Below, piece by piece: positions 4,518 through 8,285 of a stretch of 58,675 nt of DNA (position 1 is the stretch's first letter; each line of letters opens with the position of its first letter). Under the pieces are notes generated by a model. The model saw only the letters and a program-made list of their open reading frames with translations, had not been told where the DNA came from and made no database searches. Made by a program: the position numbers and the translations under genes. Location: the NCBI GenBank assembly GCA_001563875.1, contig LKMN01000003.1, positions 1 through 58,675 of the forward strand, in the 5' to 3' direction. Source of the DNA: Nanohaloarchaea archaeon B1-Br10_U2g1. GTDB lineage: Archaea > Nanohalarchaeota > Nanosalinia > Nanosalinales > Nanosalinaceae.

Positions 4518-5528
4518 ATGCAGGAAAAACAGTTTATACAGGAAGGCGCAAGGAAAGTACGTCTACACGAGAGACTTCAAGAAGAGCTTGAAGGCGCAGG
4601 ATACTCAAACGCTGACATAGTAAGAACCCCTACATCCACAAAGATAGTTATATACGCACAGAGACCAGGACTTGTGATCGGTAGAGGAGGTTCCCGAATT
4701 AAAGAACTAACAAATACTATAGAAAACGTCTTTGACTTTGAGAATCCTCAGATCGAGGTAAACGAAATAGATAACCCTGACGCAAACGCACAGATAGTAG
4801 CACAGTCAATGGCCTCTTGGTTAGAGAAAGGAGGAAGAGCAAAAAGGGTAGGATACACATACCTTAGAAGAGTTAAAGAATCTGGAATTATCGGAGCAGA
4901 AATCGAAGTAACAGGTAAGATCAGCGGAAACCGTGGAAGAACAGAGAAGTTCTCATTCGGATACGTCAAAAGATGTGGGAACACATCAAAAGAGAACGTA
5001 GATAAAGGATACGCATTAGCAAGAACCAAGCCAGGAGCAATTGGAGTAAAGGTCCGGTTGATGAAAGAGATGCCTGATTTCATGCACAGAGACGTAGACG
5101 TGGAGAAAGAGCTGATGCATGAAACAATAAGTTCTGATGAGACACATGAGAAATCAGAGAAGATAGAAATGATTATCGCTGAAGCTGAAAACATGACAGC
5201 AGGAGAGATAGAAAGAGCTATAGAAGAGCTTGAGGGAATCGGTGAAGGAGATGTGTCAACTTCAGAGGTAAGAAAAGTATTCGAGAAAGGTGACCATGAT
5301 ACAGAAGAGAGTGAAGAAACTTCGGAAGAAGTTGAAGAAGAGGAAGTTGAAGAAGAAACAGAAGATACAGAAGCCGATTACGAAGAAATTGTTTCAGGAA
5401 CTATCAGCGATGCAAAAGATGCATTAAATGAACTGGAGAATCCTGACTATGCAGCAGCACTTGAAGCTGAAAAATCAAACAAAGACAGAAAAACTCTAAC
5501 CCAATGGTTAGAGAATAAGAAAGAATAA
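4518..5528 (+). CDS. rps3: Ribosomal protein uS3 with ~150-aa C-terminal extension
   Basis: KH motif RPGLVIGRGG, KPGAIGVKV; then acidic linker and terminal helical domain. Confidence 0.96.
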   Translation: MQEKQFIQEGARKVRLHERLQEELEGAGYSNADIVRTPTSTKIVIYAQRPGLVIGRGGSRIKELTNTIENVFDFENPQIEVNEIDNPDANAQIVAQSMASWLEKGGRAKRVGYTYLRRVKESGIIGAEIEVTGKISGNRGRTEKFSFGYVKRCGNTSKENVDKGYALARTKPGAIGVKVRLMKEMPDFMHRDVDVEKELMHETISSDETHEKSEKIEMIIAEAENMTAGEIERAIEELEGIGEGDVSTSEVRKVFEKGDHDTEESEETSEEVEEEEVEEETEDTEADYEEIVSGTISDAKDALNELENPDYAAALEAEKSNKDRKTLTQWLENKKE

Positions 5529-5553
5529 AAACAGAACACTAGGTGTCATAGAT

Positions 5554-5757
5554 ATGGCGATTTTAAGAACAGACGAAGTAAGAAACATGAGCGAAGATGA
5601 ACTCAAAGAAAAAATAAGAGACCTCAAAACAGAGATAATGGAAGAACGAGGTCAGATTGAGACAGGAGGATTCGCTGACAACCCGGGAAGAATCAAAGAG
5701 ATGAAGAGAACAATCGCCCGTATAAAAACAATTCTTAACGAAAGAGGTTCTGAATAG
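5554..5757 (+). CDS. rpl29: Ribosomal protein uL29
   Basis: MAILR..EVRNMS, NPGRIKEMKRTIARIKT. Confidence 0.95.
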   Translation: MAILRTDEVRNMSEDELKEKIRDLKTEIMEERGQIETGGFADNPGRIKEMKRTIARIKTILNERGSE

Positions 5758-5763
5758 ATACTA

Positions 5764-6075
5764 ATGGCTGAAACTACTTGTCAAAAATGCGGAATGCCTG
5801 AAGACCTGTGCGTATGTGATGACATCGCACGGGACGAACAGAAGATAACAGTTAAAATCGATACAAGAACTTTCAACAAGGAAATGACCGTTATAGAAGG
5901 TCTTTCCGAGGACGTTGATATAGACACACTTTCTTCCACACTCAAGTCTAAACTTGCATGCGGCGGAACAGCTAAGAATGGCCAGATACAGCTCCAAGGA
6001 AACCATATCCGAAGGATCAAAGAAGTTCTGTCCGATGAAGGTTTCGACAGAAACCAGATAGAAGTAAAGAACTAA
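5764..6075 (+). CDS. sui1: Translation initiation factor SUI1/aIF1
   Basis: CxxCGMPEDLCVC, LKSKLACGGT, IQLQGNH; canonical position after L29. Confidence 0.95.
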   Translation: MAETTCQKCGMPEDLCVCDDIARDEQKITVKIDTRTFNKEMTVIEGLSEDVDIDTLSSTLKSKLACGGTAKNGQIQLQGNHIRRIKEVLSDEGFDRNQIEVKN

Positions 6076-6114
6076 AGGAGAAAAATTAAACATCTCCCTT
6101 AGCTATCCTTTATT

Positions 6115-6648
6115 ATGCCAGGAGCATTATTTCTTGAAGACGACAAAGTCAATCTTAGAACTATTGAGGAGGAAGACTTAGAGTTTCTAAGAGATAATAT
6201 AAACAGTCCTAGAATTCGTACATTTCTAACTGTAAGAAAGCCTCAAAATATGAGCCAACAAAAAAGTTTTTACGAAGAGGTTATCAGCGGTGAAGAAGAT
6301 GTGCACCTGGCAGTATGTGATGACGAAGATATAGTAGGAATCATCTCTCTGGAAGAAGACAGGAAAGATGTCGGTGTAGCGAAAATAGGTATCTGGATAG
6401 GGAAAGATTACCAAGGAAACGGTTATGGTACAGAGGCAGCAGAACTCATAACAGATTACGGTTTCAGCACCTTAGACTATCACAGAGTTATGGCCCAGGC
6501 TTATGAATCCAATAAGGCGTCACAGAGAATATGGGAGAAGCTTGGATTCACCAAGGAAGGAGAGCTACGCGAACAGATCTACAGAAACGGTAACCGGGAG
6601 AACGCATATGTTTATGGAGTTCTAAAAAGAGAGTGGCTGGAAGAGTAA
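6115..6648 (+). CDS. GNAT N-acetyltransferase, RimJ/RimL-like
   Basis: IGIWIGKDYQGNGYGTEA acetyl-CoA motif, NKASQRIWEKLGF.KEG.LRE. Confidence 0.9.
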   Translation: MPGALFLEDDKVNLRTIEEEDLEFLRDNINSPRIRTFLTVRKPQNMSQQKSFYEEVISGEEDVHLAVCDDEDIVGIISLEEDRKDVGVAKIGIWIGKDYQGNGYGTEAAELITDYGFSTLDYHRVMAQAYESNKASQRIWEKLGFTKEGELREQIYRNGNRENAYVYGVLKREWLEE

Positions 6649-6683
6649 CCCTATTTATAAAACTTGGTTTCGATTATTGTCTT

Positions 6684-6820
6684 GTCCGCTTGAAGTCGGA
6701 CTTTGAGCCTGACAGCCTTTTGTCTTGGTTGTAGGTTAGAAGGGTTCGATACTTCAGGCATTGGAGAAAAACCTCGTATTAAGTCTGAGTTGTTTTTCCA
6801 TGTGCCTGTTGTCAAGTGGT
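6684..6820 (+). ncRNA. Candidate structured non-coding RNA (three-way junction, ~134 nt), identity unknown
   Basis: TTTATAAA at 6654; closing stem 6686-6693/6812-6819; arm 1 6695-6750; arm 2 6755-6808; G-U pairs favour + strand; U/G-rich unlike flanking A-rich coding DNA. Confidence 0.65.
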
Positions 6821-6867
6821 TTAAAAGATTTACATACGATTTGAAGACTACGAAGAAGGTGTTGACC

Positions 6868-7170
6868 TTGGCAAAACAAGAACAAGAAGAGGAAAAAATT
6901 GAACAGTCGACAAGCATAGAGTTCCCGACTAGAGGCAGTACTTTCGTCGGAACCGTCGAATCAACAAAGATGGAGAAATCAGCAACGGTAAGATGGGAGT
7001 ACAGTCAGAAAGTACCGAAATACGAGAGATTCGAAAGAAGAAACACAAAAATAACCACTCACGTCCCTGAAGATCTAGAAGTGGAAGAAGGAGACAGAGT
7101 CAGAGTTGCCGAGACAAGACCTATCTCAAAAACCAAAAGCTCCGTAATAACAGAGGTTCTACAGAAATGA
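6868..7170 (+). CDS. rps17: Ribosomal protein uS17
   Basis: TRG..FVGTVES.KM.KS, KYERFERR, AETRPISKTK; likely TTG start at 6868 after AAGGTG. Confidence 0.93.
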   Translation: MAKQEQEEEKIEQSTSIEFPTRGSTFVGTVESTKMEKSATVRWEYSQKVPKYERFERRNTKITTHVPEDLEVEEGDRVRVAETRPISKTKSSVITEVLQK

Positions 7171-7565
7171 AGCCAATAGGTTCCAGCATTACAAGAACAC
7201 TGGATATCGGTGCAGAGCTAACATGCGCAGACAACTCCGGAGCAAAGAAGCTGAAAATCATCGGAGTAAAAGCACGGCAAGGAAGAAGAAGCCGCAGAAA
7301 CTCTGCAGGAATCGGAGACGTAGTAATGGTAAAAATACTTAGAGGAGATCAAGAAGTCAAAAACCAGGTCTTTGAAGCAGTAATCGTGAGACAAGCAAAG
7401 GAGTTCGAAAGACCGAACGGACTAAGAGTAAACTTCGAGGACAACGCAGCAGTGCTAGTAGAAGAAAACGGTCTTCCAAAAGGATCAGTAACACGAGGAC
7501 CAATTGCAAAAGAAGTAGTAGAAAGATACTCCCCAATCGGGAAAATCGCATCACAGGTGGTATAG
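7167..7565 (+). CDS. rpl14: Ribosomal protein uL14
   Basis: CADNSGAK, FEDNAAV, GPIAKE. Confidence 0.97.
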   Translation: MKPIGSSITRTLDIGAELTCADNSGAKKLKIIGVKARQGRRSRRNSAGIGDVVMVKILRGDQEVKNQVFEAVIVRQAKEFERPNGLRVNFEDNAAVLVEENGLPKGSVTRGPIAKEVVERYSPIGKIASQVV

Positions 7566-7568
7566 AAA

Positions 7569-8285
7569 ATGGTAGACAAGACACAGAACTGGAGCAGCAA
7601 CTGGAAATCAAGCACCAACCCTTCCAAACAAAGAAAATACAGAGAAAATGCTCCACTACACGTTAAGGATAAACTTATTTCAGCAAACATGGATAAAGAA
7701 CTCAGAGAAGAACTTGACACAAGAAATATTACGATTAGGACCGGCGATAGAGCTAAAGTAATGAGAGGAGACCACAAAGGCCGCGAAGGAATAATCAATA
7801 GAATTGATAGAGACAAAGGAGTTGTGTTTATTGAAGGAATCCAAAATGAGAGACAGGACGGCTCTAAAAGCCAGTTACCGATAAGACCTTCCAACATCCA
7901 GCTTACAGCGCTAAATGTAGATGAGCTTACAAGAATCCAAAAATACGATGTTGACGATGTTGAATCAATCAAGGTTGATGAAGAAGAACTCGAAGTACTT
8001 GAAGAAGATGAAGAAAGTGAAATGATGCAGAGAATGCAAGAGCAGTCGGATACAGAACAAGATGACGAAGATGAAGAAGAGGAAGTACAGGAATCTGAAG
8101 AAAAAGAGGAACCAGAGGAACAAGAAGTAGAATACGAAGAAGTAGTATCTCAAAACATCGGAGAAGTCAAAGAAGAACTAAACAACCTTGAAGAACCTGA
8201 TTACGAAGCAGCACTTAAAGCTGAAAAAGCAGGTAAAGACAGGAAAACCCTTGTAGAATATCTAGAGAACAAGAAAGAGGATTAA
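7569..8285 (+). CDS. rpl24: Ribosomal protein uL24 with ~110-aa C-terminal extension
   Basis: PSKQRKY..NAPLH, KOW GDRAKVMRGDHKG, PIRPSNI; then acidic linker and domain shared with uS3. Confidence 0.95.
   Translation: MVDKTQNWSSNWKSSTNPSKQRKYRENAPLHVKDKLISANMDKELREELDTRNITIRTGDRAKVMRGDHKGREGIINRIDRDKGVVFIEGIQNERQDGSKSQLPIRPSNIQLTALNVDELTRIQKYDVDDVESIKVDEEELEVLEEDEESEMMQRMQEQSDTEQDDEDEEEEVQESEEKEEPEEQEVEYEEVVSQNIGEVKEELNNLEEPDYEAALKAEKAGKDRKTLVEYLENKKED

What the first reader, a model, noticed from the sequence alone, without database searches (positions are those of the whole stretch)
5379..8285. Same ~49-aa domain appended to both uS3 (small subunit) and uL24 (large subunit)
Seen: uS3 ends YEEIVSGTISDAKDALNELENPDYAAALEAEKSNKDRKTLTQWLENKKE (5379-5525); uL24 ends YEEVVSQNIGEVKEELNNLEEPDYEAALKAEKAGKDRKTLVEYLENKKED (8133-8282). 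They align without gaps at 32/49 identity, each behind a long Glu-rich linker. Established: neither protein normally has this module; uS3 lines the mRNA entry channel and uL24 rims the peptide exit. Inference: a flexible ribosome-tethered docking or dimerisation module, which might link neighbouring ribosomes (polysome/hibernation), bridge subunits, or recruit RNAP, translocon or chaperone. It resembles small helical repeats I recall from haloarchaeal proteins, but I cannot assign a family.
Basis: partly seen in the sequence, partly recalled or inferred. Interest (0 to 1): 0.85.

Follow-up and report, generated by a model that had tools for sequence, protein, structure and literature searches.

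The report
Shared leashed domain on nanohaloarchaeal ribosomal proteins
Two ribosomal proteins of this tiny salt-loving archaeon end in the same small three-helix domain on a long acidic leash, and that domain also sits on other ribosomal proteins, RNA polymerase, replication and membrane proteins across the whole phylum, so it looks like a shared docking handle whose partner is still unknown.

Summary
uS3 (4518-5528) and uL24 (7569-8285) end in the same ~49-aa module (32/49 identical; BLASTP E 1e-16), each behind a Glu/Asp-rich linker.

It is not a local duplication. It is a member of a mobile domain family:
- 7 copies on 6 proteins in this 710-kb genome.
- Present in 70 of 70 genomes of the phylum (Nanohaloarchaeota).
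- 499 cluster representatives among 1.84 billion proteins.

Carriers include uS3, eS24, uL24, eL31, uL22, uL10, RNA polymerase A'', Gins51, KaiC-like and MoxR ATPases, a single-pass membrane glycoprotein, two multivalent acidic proteins, and bL31 of a Paceibacteria (CPR) bacterium.

The uS3 fusion is ancestral: 34 of 38 relatives by the first profile, plus one divergent copy. It is under purifying selection (dN/dS about 0.05).

AlphaFold2 gives a confident (pLDDT 91) short helix plus three helices. No Pfam, NCBIfam, PHROG, PDB-sequence or significant fold relative was found. The only lead is Pfam 38.1 DUF8129, which I could not test.

Function is inferred, not shown. Most likely it is a leash-borne docking handle, analogous to the P-stalk tail, joining expression machines to a shared partner or membrane anchor (about 0.4). 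The main rival is a nucleic-acid-binding module (about 0.25). No description in print was found.

The parts
4518..5528 (+). uS3 gene (336 aa): normal KH plus S3_C core, then a lineage-specific extension ending in the module
   Evidence: ORF. Pfam KH_2 17-87 and Ribosomal_S3_C 99-180. NCBIfam NF003219 2-215, 233 bits against a cut-off of 147.
5151..5294 (+). uS3 residues about 212-259: a second conserved segment (...AEAENMT..EIERAIEE...DISK.EVR..FE) between core and acidic linker, seen in family f1 only
   Evidence: MAFFT alignment of uS3 tails from relatives' loci. Also conserved in the pairwise alignment with P0267. Function unknown.
5295..5378 (+). uS3 acidic low-complexity linker (residues 260-287)
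   Evidence: D+E 0.67 in the 30-aa window starting at residue 261. Length and sequence are not conserved among relatives.
5379..5525 (+). Module copy 1 (uS3 residues 288-336)
   Evidence: Profile hits E 1.6e-33 and 2.5e-26. AF2 model pLDDT 91 with helices 2-5, 9-18, 24-34 and 38-48. Same-genus orthologue dN/dS 0.035/0.759.
7569..7940 (+). uL24 core (residues 1-124; KOW plus L26/L24 domain)
   Evidence: Pfam Ribosomal_L26 15-119 and KOW 59-89. NCBIfam TIGR01080 15-124, 106 bits against a cut-off of 47.65.
7941..8132 (+). uL24 acidic low-complexity linker (residues 125-188)
   Evidence: D+E 0.67 in the 30-aa window at residue 161. Relatives have linkers of different length and sequence.
8133..8282 (+). 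Module copy 2 (uL24 residues 189-238)
   Evidence: Profile hits E 3.1e-32 and 2.7e-24. Same-genus orthologue dN/dS 0.126/0.598.

Best explanation
Shown:
- The two tails are copies of an autonomous, mobile, roughly 47-aa domain: a short N-terminal helix plus three helices.
- The consensus is dYeEivsGTV.EvK..l..l..pDY..LLeAEk.GKdRKTLk.WLe.
- The domain is characteristic of the phylum Nanohaloarchaeota.
- It is always terminal or in tandem, and always joined to its carrier by a low-complexity, usually poly-acidic, linker.
- Carriers are solvent-exposed ribosomal proteins of both subunits (uS3 ancestrally; eS24, uL24, eL31, uL22, uL10), RNA polymerase A'', Gins51, KaiC-like and MoxR ATPases, a single-pass membrane glycoprotein with the module on its cytoplasmic N-terminus, and two soluble proteins with 2-5 copies.

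Inferred:
- It works as a docking handle on a leash, in the manner of the ribosomal P-stalk tail (acidic linker plus terminal binding element).
- It binds one shared partner, or other copies of itself.
- It thereby ties ribosomes, RNA polymerase and replisome parts to multivalent scaffold proteins and to the membrane anchor.
- The invariant Glu31/Arg37 and near-invariant Lys13, Lys35 and Thr39 would form the fold's caps and the binding face.

The partner is unknown.
For: A real, selected domain:
- 7 copies on 6 proteins in the window's own genome.
- Found in 40 of 41 genomes (G000 included) with the 7-row profile and in 70 of 70 genomes of the phylum with the 40-row profile.
- 499 of 1.84 billion cluster representatives at E<=1e-3, and 136 at E<=1e-10.
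- Purifying selection in orthologues, and saturated synonymous sites between the paralogues.
- In 286 distinct copies, Glu31 and Arg37 are 100% conserved, Tyr1 93%, Lys13 92%, Thr39 91% and Lys35 88%.
- The AF2 model has pLDDT 91.

Generic handle rather than part of any one machine:
- Pfam tally of the best 150 representatives: S24e 13, L31e 9, KOW 3, and one each of S3_C, L22, RNA_pol_Rpb1_5, bL31, AAA_3, KaiC, Gins51_C and CheW (details).
- uL10 also carries it (P0201).
- Clustering of the same 150 gives 38 membrane proteins, 22 proteins of about 500 aa with two modules, and 3 winged-helix coiled-coil proteins with up to 4 modules.
- Position in those 150: only C-terminal in 53, only N-terminal in 49, and the remaining 48 are tandem, multi-copy or internal.

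Membrane anchor:
- The alignment of 39 members shows an N-terminal module, an acidic linker, one hydrophobic helix, and then a domain rich in N-x-T/S sequons.

Leash analogy:
- In this genome only aP1, uS3, uL24 and one other ORF have a 30-aa window with D+E >= 0.66.
- aP1 ends in the usual stalk peptide ...GLGDLF.

Not a salt adaptation:
- G028 keeps a divergent module on uS3 behind a Lys-rich linker.
- Three f3 genomes keep it behind Lys/Glu linkers.

Independent capture:
- bL31 type B, labelled Candidatus Paceibacteria, carries it at its C-terminus.
Against: - No binding partner was identified and no experiment exists.
- An AF2 model of a natural tandem pair (uS3 tail of G032, 5-row alignment) shows two separately folded modules. 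pTM is only 0.41 and mean pLDDT 71.6, so it gives no sign that modules pack on each other.
- The fold search gives no significant relative to borrow a function from. The best match is Z 5.3 to the Ctf4 C-terminal helical domain, within the noise for small helical bundles. Foldseek gave nothing at E<=0.001.
- The conserved basic residues in an otherwise acidic domain (mean net charge -5.4) would fit phosphate or nucleic-acid binding equally well.
- Most soluble carriers are nucleic-acid machines, which also suits the nucleic-acid rival.
Confidence: 0.4

Rival explanations
1. The module is a small nucleic-acid-binding domain, of the helix-extension-helix / SAP / Rho-N kind but with an extra middle helix. 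On a leash it gives ribosomes, RNA polymerase, GINS, zinc-finger ATPases and a membrane protein an extra grip on mRNA, rRNA or the chromosome. The membrane form would tether the nucleoid or mRNA to the membrane, as LEM/HeH proteins do in nuclei.
For: - A conserved basic cluster (Lys13 92%; K/R at position 32 75%; Lys35 88%; Arg37 100%; Lys38 58%) sits in a domain of mean net charge -5.4.
- Nearly all soluble carriers act on nucleic acids: ribosomal proteins, RNAP A'', Gins51, C2H2 zinc finger plus KaiC-like ATPase, and a TrmB/MarR-type winged helix.
- Tandem copies could raise avidity.
- From my recall of the SAP consensus, helix 1 (tV.E.K..L) and the G-K...L...L end resemble it. This is recall, not a test.
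Against: - Pfam SAP (PF02037) and Rho_N (PF07498) models find nothing in the window's own genome even at E<=10, with 13 and 8 candidates scored.
- No such family appears in the Pfam scans of the module at E<=1.
- The model has three helices plus a turn, not two.
- Net charge flips from about -5 to positive in the non-halophile G028 (by my count of its tail). Charge follows the proteome rather than a ligand.
- Linkers of 30-100 acidic residues would repel nucleic acid.
Confidence: 0.25
2. The module binds the ribosome itself (rRNA or a ribosomal protein). On non-ribosomal carriers it would recruit them to ribosomes, for example RNAP A'' for transcription-translation coupling, or the membrane protein as a ribosome receptor. 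On ribosomal proteins it would be a second anchoring point.
For: - Ribosomal proteins are the commonest named carriers: at least 27 of the best 150 representatives.
- The oldest fusion is uS3.
- A bacterial capture is again on a ribosomal protein, bL31.
Against: - A long flexible leash is unnecessary for a contact next to the carrier.
- Six different ribosomal carriers lie far apart on both subunits (positions from established ribosome structures, not tested here).
- No rRNA feature was examined.
Confidence: 0.1
3. One reading: the tails pair ribosomes or subunits (polysome packing, hibernation dimers, subunit bridging).
For: Modules are present on both subunits in the same genome: uS3 and eS24 on the small subunit and uL24 on the large.
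Against: - The same module sits on RNAP A'', Gins51, ATPases and membrane proteins.
- G028 has a single copy (uS3) and G025 a single copy on a KaiC-like ATPase, so pairing between two ribosomal sites cannot be the ancestral role.
- The tandem model shows no module-module packing (weak evidence).
Confidence: 0.08
4. The module has no specific ligand. It is a stable folded cap that protects or organises the acidic tails (against exoproteases, or as a solubility or spacing device), and it spread because it is harmless.
For: - It is always terminal and always next to low-complexity linkers.
- No partner was found.
Against: - Invariant and near-invariant polar surface-type residues across 286 copies.
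- Strong purifying selection.
- It is retained where the linker is not acidic.
- It is at the N-terminus in 49 of 150 carriers, and up to 5 copies occur per protein.
- About half of the uL24 tails do without it. A cap is therefore not needed for an acidic tail.
Confidence: 0.1

Closest known systems
Ribosomal P-stalk tails (archaeal aP1 / uL10 C-termini)
   Same: Both are a ribosome-borne, highly acidic flexible linker ending in a conserved binding element, present in several copies per ribosome. This genome's aP1 has the ordinary form ending ...GLGDLF. One uL10 cluster (P0201) ends in the module.
   Different: The stalk element is a short hydrophobic peptide that recruits translational GTPases (established knowledge). 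Here the element is a folded 47-aa domain. It sits on other ribosomal proteins and on non-ribosomal proteins, and its ligand is unknown.
SAP / HeH / LEM / Rho_N helix-extension-helix domains
   Same: Small helical modules of 35-50 aa, often terminal and promiscuous, and found on membrane proteins with an N-terminal module (LEM/HeH inner nuclear membrane proteins; recalled). The pattern of helix 1 and the G-K loop looks similar from recall.
   Different: There is no HMM match. The predicted fold has three helices plus a turn. No such chain is among the 50 best fold matches.
UBA-like three-helix bundles (e.g. the C-terminal UBA of archaeal NAC, the N-terminal domain of EF-Ts)
   Same: Size of about 45 aa, three helices, and an association with the translation apparatus (recalled knowledge).
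   Different: No Pfam UBA-type hit at E<=1 and none among the listed fold matches. The weak polyubiquitin hits of the profile are sums over repeats, at 5.9 bits per copy, and mean nothing.
Lineage-specific ribosomal protein extensions borrowed from other proteins (e.g. the histone-H1-like tail of mosquito RPS6, PMC548281, seen only as a search listing and abstract)
   Same: A ribosomal protein carries a C-terminal extension that is homologous to a module found elsewhere in the proteome.
   Different: Here one module is shared by up to six ribosomal proteins of both subunits plus non-ribosomal machines, phylum-wide.
Pfam 38.1 DUF8129 (PF26450)
   Same: The language-model look-alike search put the uL24 module nearest to a 54-member cluster of 44-aa proteins, of which 13% carry DUF8129. 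The score was 0.89 with 201 of 256 features shared.
   Different: This is a lead only. The family is absent from the Pfam copy available here, so no alignment or score could be made. No paper mentions it.

Membership tests
uS3 (archaeal/eukaryotic type) | KH domain plus S3 C-terminal domain, scoring above the curated equivalog cut-off | tested here: met
   NF003219 at 233.1 bits (cut-off 147) and TIGR01008 at 213.3 bits (cut-off 150.25), covering residues 2-215. Pfam KH_2 and Ribosomal_S3_C also hit.
uL24 (archaeal/eukaryotic type) | KOW plus L26/L24 domain, scoring above the curated equivalog cut-off | tested here: met
   TIGR01080 at 106.3 bits (cut-off 47.65), covering residues 15-124. Pfam Ribosomal_L26 and KOW also hit.
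SAP domain (PF02037) | Match to the family profile | tested here: not met
   0 matches in the window's own genome at E<=10, with 13 candidates scored. None in the hmmscan of the modules at E<=1.
Rho_N / HeH (PF07498) | Match to the family profile | tested here: not met
   0 matches in the window's own genome at E<=10, with 8 candidates scored. The control rings in 12 of 14 named genomes.
SAP / HeH / LEM fold | Two helices joined by an extended segment | tested here: inconclusive
   The AF2 model has a short helix plus three helices. No such chain is among the 50 rows listed by VIA-align, but a family that is not listed is not excluded.
UBA-like three-helix bundle | Profile match, or a fold match standing above background | tested here: inconclusive
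   No Pfam hit at E<=1. The best fold match is only Z 5.3 and is to a different protein.
P-stalk type tail | Acidic flexible linker on a ribosomal protein | tested here: met
   D+E 0.67 in the best 30-aa window of uS3 and uL24, as in aP1 at 0.70.
P-stalk type tail | Conserved C-terminal hydrophobic peptide (GLGxLF-like) that binds translational GTPases | tested here: not met
   uS3 and uL24 end in the folded module (...WLENKKE / ...YLENKKED). Only aP1 ends in GLGDLF. So this is 'works like', not 'is a'.
Pfam DUF8129 (PF26450) | Match to the family profile | not testable with these tools
   The family is not in the local Pfam library. There is only a language-model lead, score 0.89.
Any solved structure, by sequence | Significant profile hit in PDB sequences | tested here: not met
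   The profiles A2 and A4 give only repeat-summed polyubiquitin hits (5.9 bits per copy; single ubiquitin E 0.33-1) and noise.

The most novel reading that the evidence does not exclude
The module is the common connector of a phylum-wide cytoplasmic tethering network. In these ultra-small cells, ribosomes (both subunits), RNA polymerase, the replisome and certain ATPases would be physically leashed by 30-100-residue polyanionic tethers. They would be leashed to multivalent scaffold proteins (2-5 modules each) and to a membrane glycoprotein. That would create an organised, membrane-linked or condensate-like gene-expression compartment, and a route to transcription-translation-membrane coupling that has no described counterpart in prokaryotes. 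Its capture by bL31 of a co-habiting CPR bacterium would mean the connector is portable between the two great lineages of nano-sized symbionts.
Probability: 0.25. Interest if true: 0.9.

Novelty: new variant of a known kind. Interest (0 to 1): 0.7.

Why it matters
Ribosomal proteins are among the most conserved proteins known. Here one foreign folded domain hangs on flexible leashes from up to six of them, on both subunits. The same domain is also on RNA polymerase, GINS and a membrane anchor, and it is conserved across an entire phylum and under purifying selection. That points to an unrecognised layer of organisation of the expression machinery in DPANN symbionts.

It gives a concrete, small, expressible handle of about 47 aa for pull-downs, structural work and cryo-ET in the few Nanohaloarchaeota-host co-cultures that exist.

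There are two practical points for annotation:
- NCBI labels many eS24-module fusions 'hypothetical protein'.
- The domain has no model in the Pfam copy used here.

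Tried and rejected
Searches and tests that led nowhere:
- Family libraries. Pfam, PHROGs and NCBIfam scans of the isolated modules gave only sub-threshold noise: AAA_lid_12, XhlA, an NTPase, VanS and phrog_29632. P0001, with four copies, matched no Pfam family.
- PDB sequence profiles. Only polyubiquitin summed over repeats, which I rejected as chance.
- Foldseek against the PDB. 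Nothing at E<=0.001.
- VIA-align wide. Best Z 5.3 (Ctf4 C-terminal helical domain, 5nxq_A), followed by many unrelated helical repeats at Z 4-5. I treat this as a common helical arrangement. No SAP, LEM, Rho or UBA chain was among the 50 rows listed.
- Complex prediction of two copies of the module (alignment A4). The verdict was 'no answer' (score 0.00, controls not run). It is evidence neither way.
- AF2 of a natural tandem pair. pTM 0.41.
- tblastn of the uL24 module against the phage and plasmid collections. No match at E<=0.01.
- IMG/VR. The peptide-pattern scan found no relative. A degenerate DNA pattern for the EAEK.GKDRKT motif gave 3 stretches, but none of their ORFs matched the module profile at E<=1.
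- Genome-contig scan. It returned only two loci of one same-genus MAG. The range outside the phylum could therefore not be mapped by organism name, and no haloarchaeal genome could be searched with the profile.
- Metagenome contigs with the Paceibacteria bL31. It returned only bL31 cores without the module, so that protein's genomic context stays unchecked.
- The search for homologous proteins with the divergent G028 tail. It found only itself.
- Gene neighbourhood of the membrane carrier on contig C8. Nothing informative by eye.
- ESM Atlas on the C-terminal domain of the roughly 490-aa carrier. Scores <=0.80, no lead.
- Cluster look-ups of ten odd carriers. They added one more 'Candidatus Nanohaloarchaea' label and nothing else.
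- P0267. It is labelled Aenigmatarchaeota but is 69% identical to this uS3 over its full length, so I read it as a nanohaloarchaeon.

Literature:
- Six full-text searches and term look-ups in four papers found no description of the module. The four are PMC7203096, PMC9765267, bioRxiv 10.1101/2025.08.05.668663 and 10.1101/2021.01.31.429008. I read only the passages returned.
- Supplementary files, such as the proteomics tables of PMC6642349, are closed. Whether peptides from the tails were detected could not be checked.

Full report
**1. The observation**

The window's S10/spc-type ribosomal cluster encodes uS3 at 4518-5528 (336 aa) and uL24 at 7569-8285 (238 aa).
- Curated models cover only residues 2-215 of uS3 and 15-124 of uL24.
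- The last 49-50 residues of the two proteins align without gaps at 32/49 identities. BLASTP with composition correction gives E 1e-16.
- Each tail follows a stretch with D+E of 0.67 in the best 30-aa window.
- At the DNA level the copies are 104/147 identical, with dS 1.57 and dN 0.23. They are therefore old copies under constraint.

**2. A domain family, not a local curiosity**

- A profile of the two copies finds five more in the same 710-kb, 96.75%-complete genome.
- Translating the surrounding frames and scanning them gives the other carriers in this genome:
  - eS24 (module at the C-terminus).
  - A membrane protein of about 242 aa (module at the N-terminus).
  - A TrmB/MarR-type winged-helix plus coiled-coil protein (module at the C-terminus).
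  - A very acidic 487-aa protein with two N-terminal copies.
- Source names attached to close homologues place the organism in Nanohaloarchaeota: Candidatus Nanohaloarchaea, Nanosalina, Nanohalococcus occultus and SG9. So does a same-genus MAG title.
- The 7-row profile hits 40 of 41 genomes (G000 included), with 1-11 copies in each genome that has a match.
- A 40-row profile hits 70 of 70 genomes of the phylum held.
- Against 1.84 billion cluster representatives there are 499 proteins at E<=1e-3 and 136 at E<=1e-10. That number is about what the phylum alone would give.

**3. Carriers**

Among the best 150 representatives, the module is only C-terminal in 53 and only N-terminal in 49. The remaining 48 carry it in tandem, in several copies or internally, with up to five copies per protein.

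Pfam on all 150 and on chosen members names these carriers:
- eS24: 13.
- eL31: 9.
- uL24/KOW: 2-3.
- One each of uS3, uL22, RNA polymerase A'' (Rpb1 domain 5), Gins51, a KaiC-type ATPase with C2H2 fingers, a MoxR AAA+ ATPase, and a CheW-containing form of the 500-aa family.
- One bL31.

Other points on carriers:
- uL10 appears in the second search (P0201; sequence).
- Masking the module and clustering gives 38 membrane proteins, 22 of the 500-aa family, 12 eS24, 10 eL31, two unnamed families of 10 and 5, 3 winged-helix coiled-coil proteins and 3 uL24.
- The bL31 is NCBI MFB6226321.1, labelled 'type B 50S ribosomal protein L31 [Candidatus Paceibacteria bacterium]'. A CPR bacterium has therefore captured the same module, again on a ribosomal protein. 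Its genomic context could not be checked.
- The membrane family has an N-terminal module, an acidic linker, one hydrophobic helix, and a roughly 90-aa domain full of N-x-T/S sequons. The module therefore faces the cytoplasm.

**4. History and selection**

I fetched the cluster around uS3 from 38 relatives and scored every ORF.
- uS3 carries the module in 34 of 38 loci, with two copies in five genomes of family f4.
- Of the four misses, two end at a contig edge (L053, L064). One is a divergent copy in the non-acidic genome G028, which the wider profile recognises. Only G033 truly lacks it.
- uL24 carries the module in 10 of 23 loci. The other uL24 tails are acidic and often end in [KE]GD[NKQS].
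- None of uL2, uS19, uL22, uL29, SUI1, uS17, uL14, eS4, uL5, uS14 or uS8 carries it in these loci.
- With the full eS24-module protein as query, the alignment spans core and module in 45 of 50 genomes of family f1. This is my count of rows: 40 in one piece and 5 split within one frame.
- In none of the 19 other genomes with a hit does the alignment reach the end of the module. In four it reaches query residues 122-134, so a divergent copy there is not excluded.
- G028 and G025 each have a single copy, on uS3 and on a zinc-finger KaiC-like ATPase respectively.
- I infer that the uS3 fusion is ancestral to the phylum and that the others are later additions.
- Same-genus orthologues give dN/dS of 0.035/0.759 for the uS3 module and 0.126/0.598 for the uL24 module.
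- The nearest module by sequence is on the same kind of carrier for 73/81 eS24, 33/45 uS3, 30/41 of the 500-aa family, 15/25 uL24 and 9/16 eL31. This indicates mostly vertical descent after each fusion.
- The module is kept where linkers are Lys-rich (G028) or Lys/Glu-rich (three f3 genomes). It is therefore not a salt-adaptation device.

**5. Anatomy**

- AlphaFold2 on the 7-row alignment gives pLDDT 91 and pTM 0.69, with helices at 2-5, 9-18, 24-34 and 38-48.
- In 286 distinct copies, Glu31 and Arg37 are invariant. Tyr1 is 93% conserved, Lys13 92%, Thr39 91%, Lys35 88%, Leu28 87%, Thr8 80% and Asp23 79%.
- Thr8, Asp23 and Thr39 sit just before the three long helices, so I read them as helix caps (inference).
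- Mean net charge is -5.4.

**6. Kinship tests**

- No family in Pfam, PHROGs or NCBIfam matches.
- PDB sequence profiles give only repeat-summed polyubiquitin noise.
- Foldseek gives nothing.
- VIA-align's best match is Z 5.3 to the Ctf4 helical domain. By the tool's own guidance that is within background for helical bundles.
- SAP and Rho_N profiles find nothing in the genome at E<=10.
- The one lead is a language-model neighbour cluster in which 13% of members carry Pfam 38.1 DUF8129. That family is not in the local library and is in no paper searched.

**7. How it most likely works**

Shown: this is a conserved, selected, portable, terminal folded module on flexible linkers. It is shared by machines that have nothing in common except being large assemblies of information processing, plus a membrane anchor and multivalent soluble proteins.

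Inferred: it is a docking handle.
- The architecture is that of the P-stalk (acidic leash plus terminal binding element). This genome also has the stalk in its ordinary form, with aP1 ending ...GLGDLF.
- The combination of monovalent 'clients', 2-5-valent soluble proteins and a membrane-anchored copy is what a scaffold-client tethering system looks like.
- I put this at about 0.4.

The main rival, at about 0.25, is a nucleic-acid-binding module. It is favoured by the conserved basic residues and by the nature of the carriers. It is disfavoured by the failed SAP/Rho_N tests, by the charge flip in the non-halophile, and by the polyanionic leashes.

Ribosome binding, ribosome pairing and a passive cap are less likely, for the reasons given under rival explanations.

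**8. Novelty and limits**

- I found no description in six full-text searches, nor in the passages read from four papers.
- If DUF8129 turns out to be this domain, the family has a number but still no function.
- The range outside the phylum is poorly sampled. No haloarchaeal genome could be searched with the profile, and only the best 150 of the 499 representatives could be inspected.
- The structural model rests on a shallow alignment.
- All mechanism statements are inference.

Noticed in passing
window 6115-6648 (+): A GNAT acetyltransferase gene sits inside the ribosomal protein cluster, between SUI1 and uS17. It matches Pfam Acetyltransf_3 at E 5.7e-28, which from recall is the RimJ/RimL-like family. 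A homologue is in the same place in 3 of the 38 relatives' loci: L047, L049 and L063. It could be a ribosomal-protein acetylase.
   Followed up: partly
window 5151-5294 (+), uS3 residues about 212-259: A second conserved element lies in the uS3 extension...AEAENMT(S/A).EIERAIEE...DISK.EVR..FE. It sits between the core and the acidic linker, is present throughout family f1, and is absent from families f3, f4 and f5. Its function is unknown.
   Followed up: partly
relatives' loci L052, L058, L065, L069, L076, L077, L079-L081 (uL24 tails): uL24 tails that lack the module are still long and acidic. They repeatedly end in a short [KE]GD[NKQS] or GEN motif. This may be an alternative terminal element.
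   Followed up: no
P0140 (NCBI MFB6226321.1): A bacterial bL31 type B, labelled Candidatus Paceibacteria (CPR), carries the nanohaloarchaeal module at its C-terminus behind a Gln/Glu-rich linker. This is probably inter-domain transfer between nano-sized symbionts of the same brines. Its genomic context was not recovered.
   Followed up: partly
L087 592-1755 (-), genome G025; also P0002: There is a conserved architecture of module(s) plus a C2H2 zinc finger plus a KaiC/RecA-like ATPase. This protein carries the only module found in the 61%-complete genome G025.
   Followed up: no
L083 (genome G028, family f5): This relative has Lys-rich rather than acidic ribosomal tails, on uS3 and uL24. That suggests a lineage of the phylum that is not a salt-in halophile. 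It keeps a single, divergent, basic module on uS3.
   Followed up: partly
G000 contig C4 8696-9004 (-), outside the window: The stalk protein aP1 has a normal acidic linker and a ...GLGDLF end. In contrast, one uL10 cluster from another nanohaloarchaeon (P0201) ends in the module.
   Followed up: no
one search hit list (eS24-module proteins): Several NCBI records name the eS24-module fusion 'hypothetical protein' although Pfam S24e matches. This is an annotation gap, perhaps because of the extra domain.
   Followed up: no
window 6703-7170 (+): The longest ORF over uS17 starts at a TTG 80 codons upstream of the S17 domain, which covers residues 83-150. The true start is probably later. No RNase P protein gene was noticed between SUI1 and uS17.
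   Followed up: no
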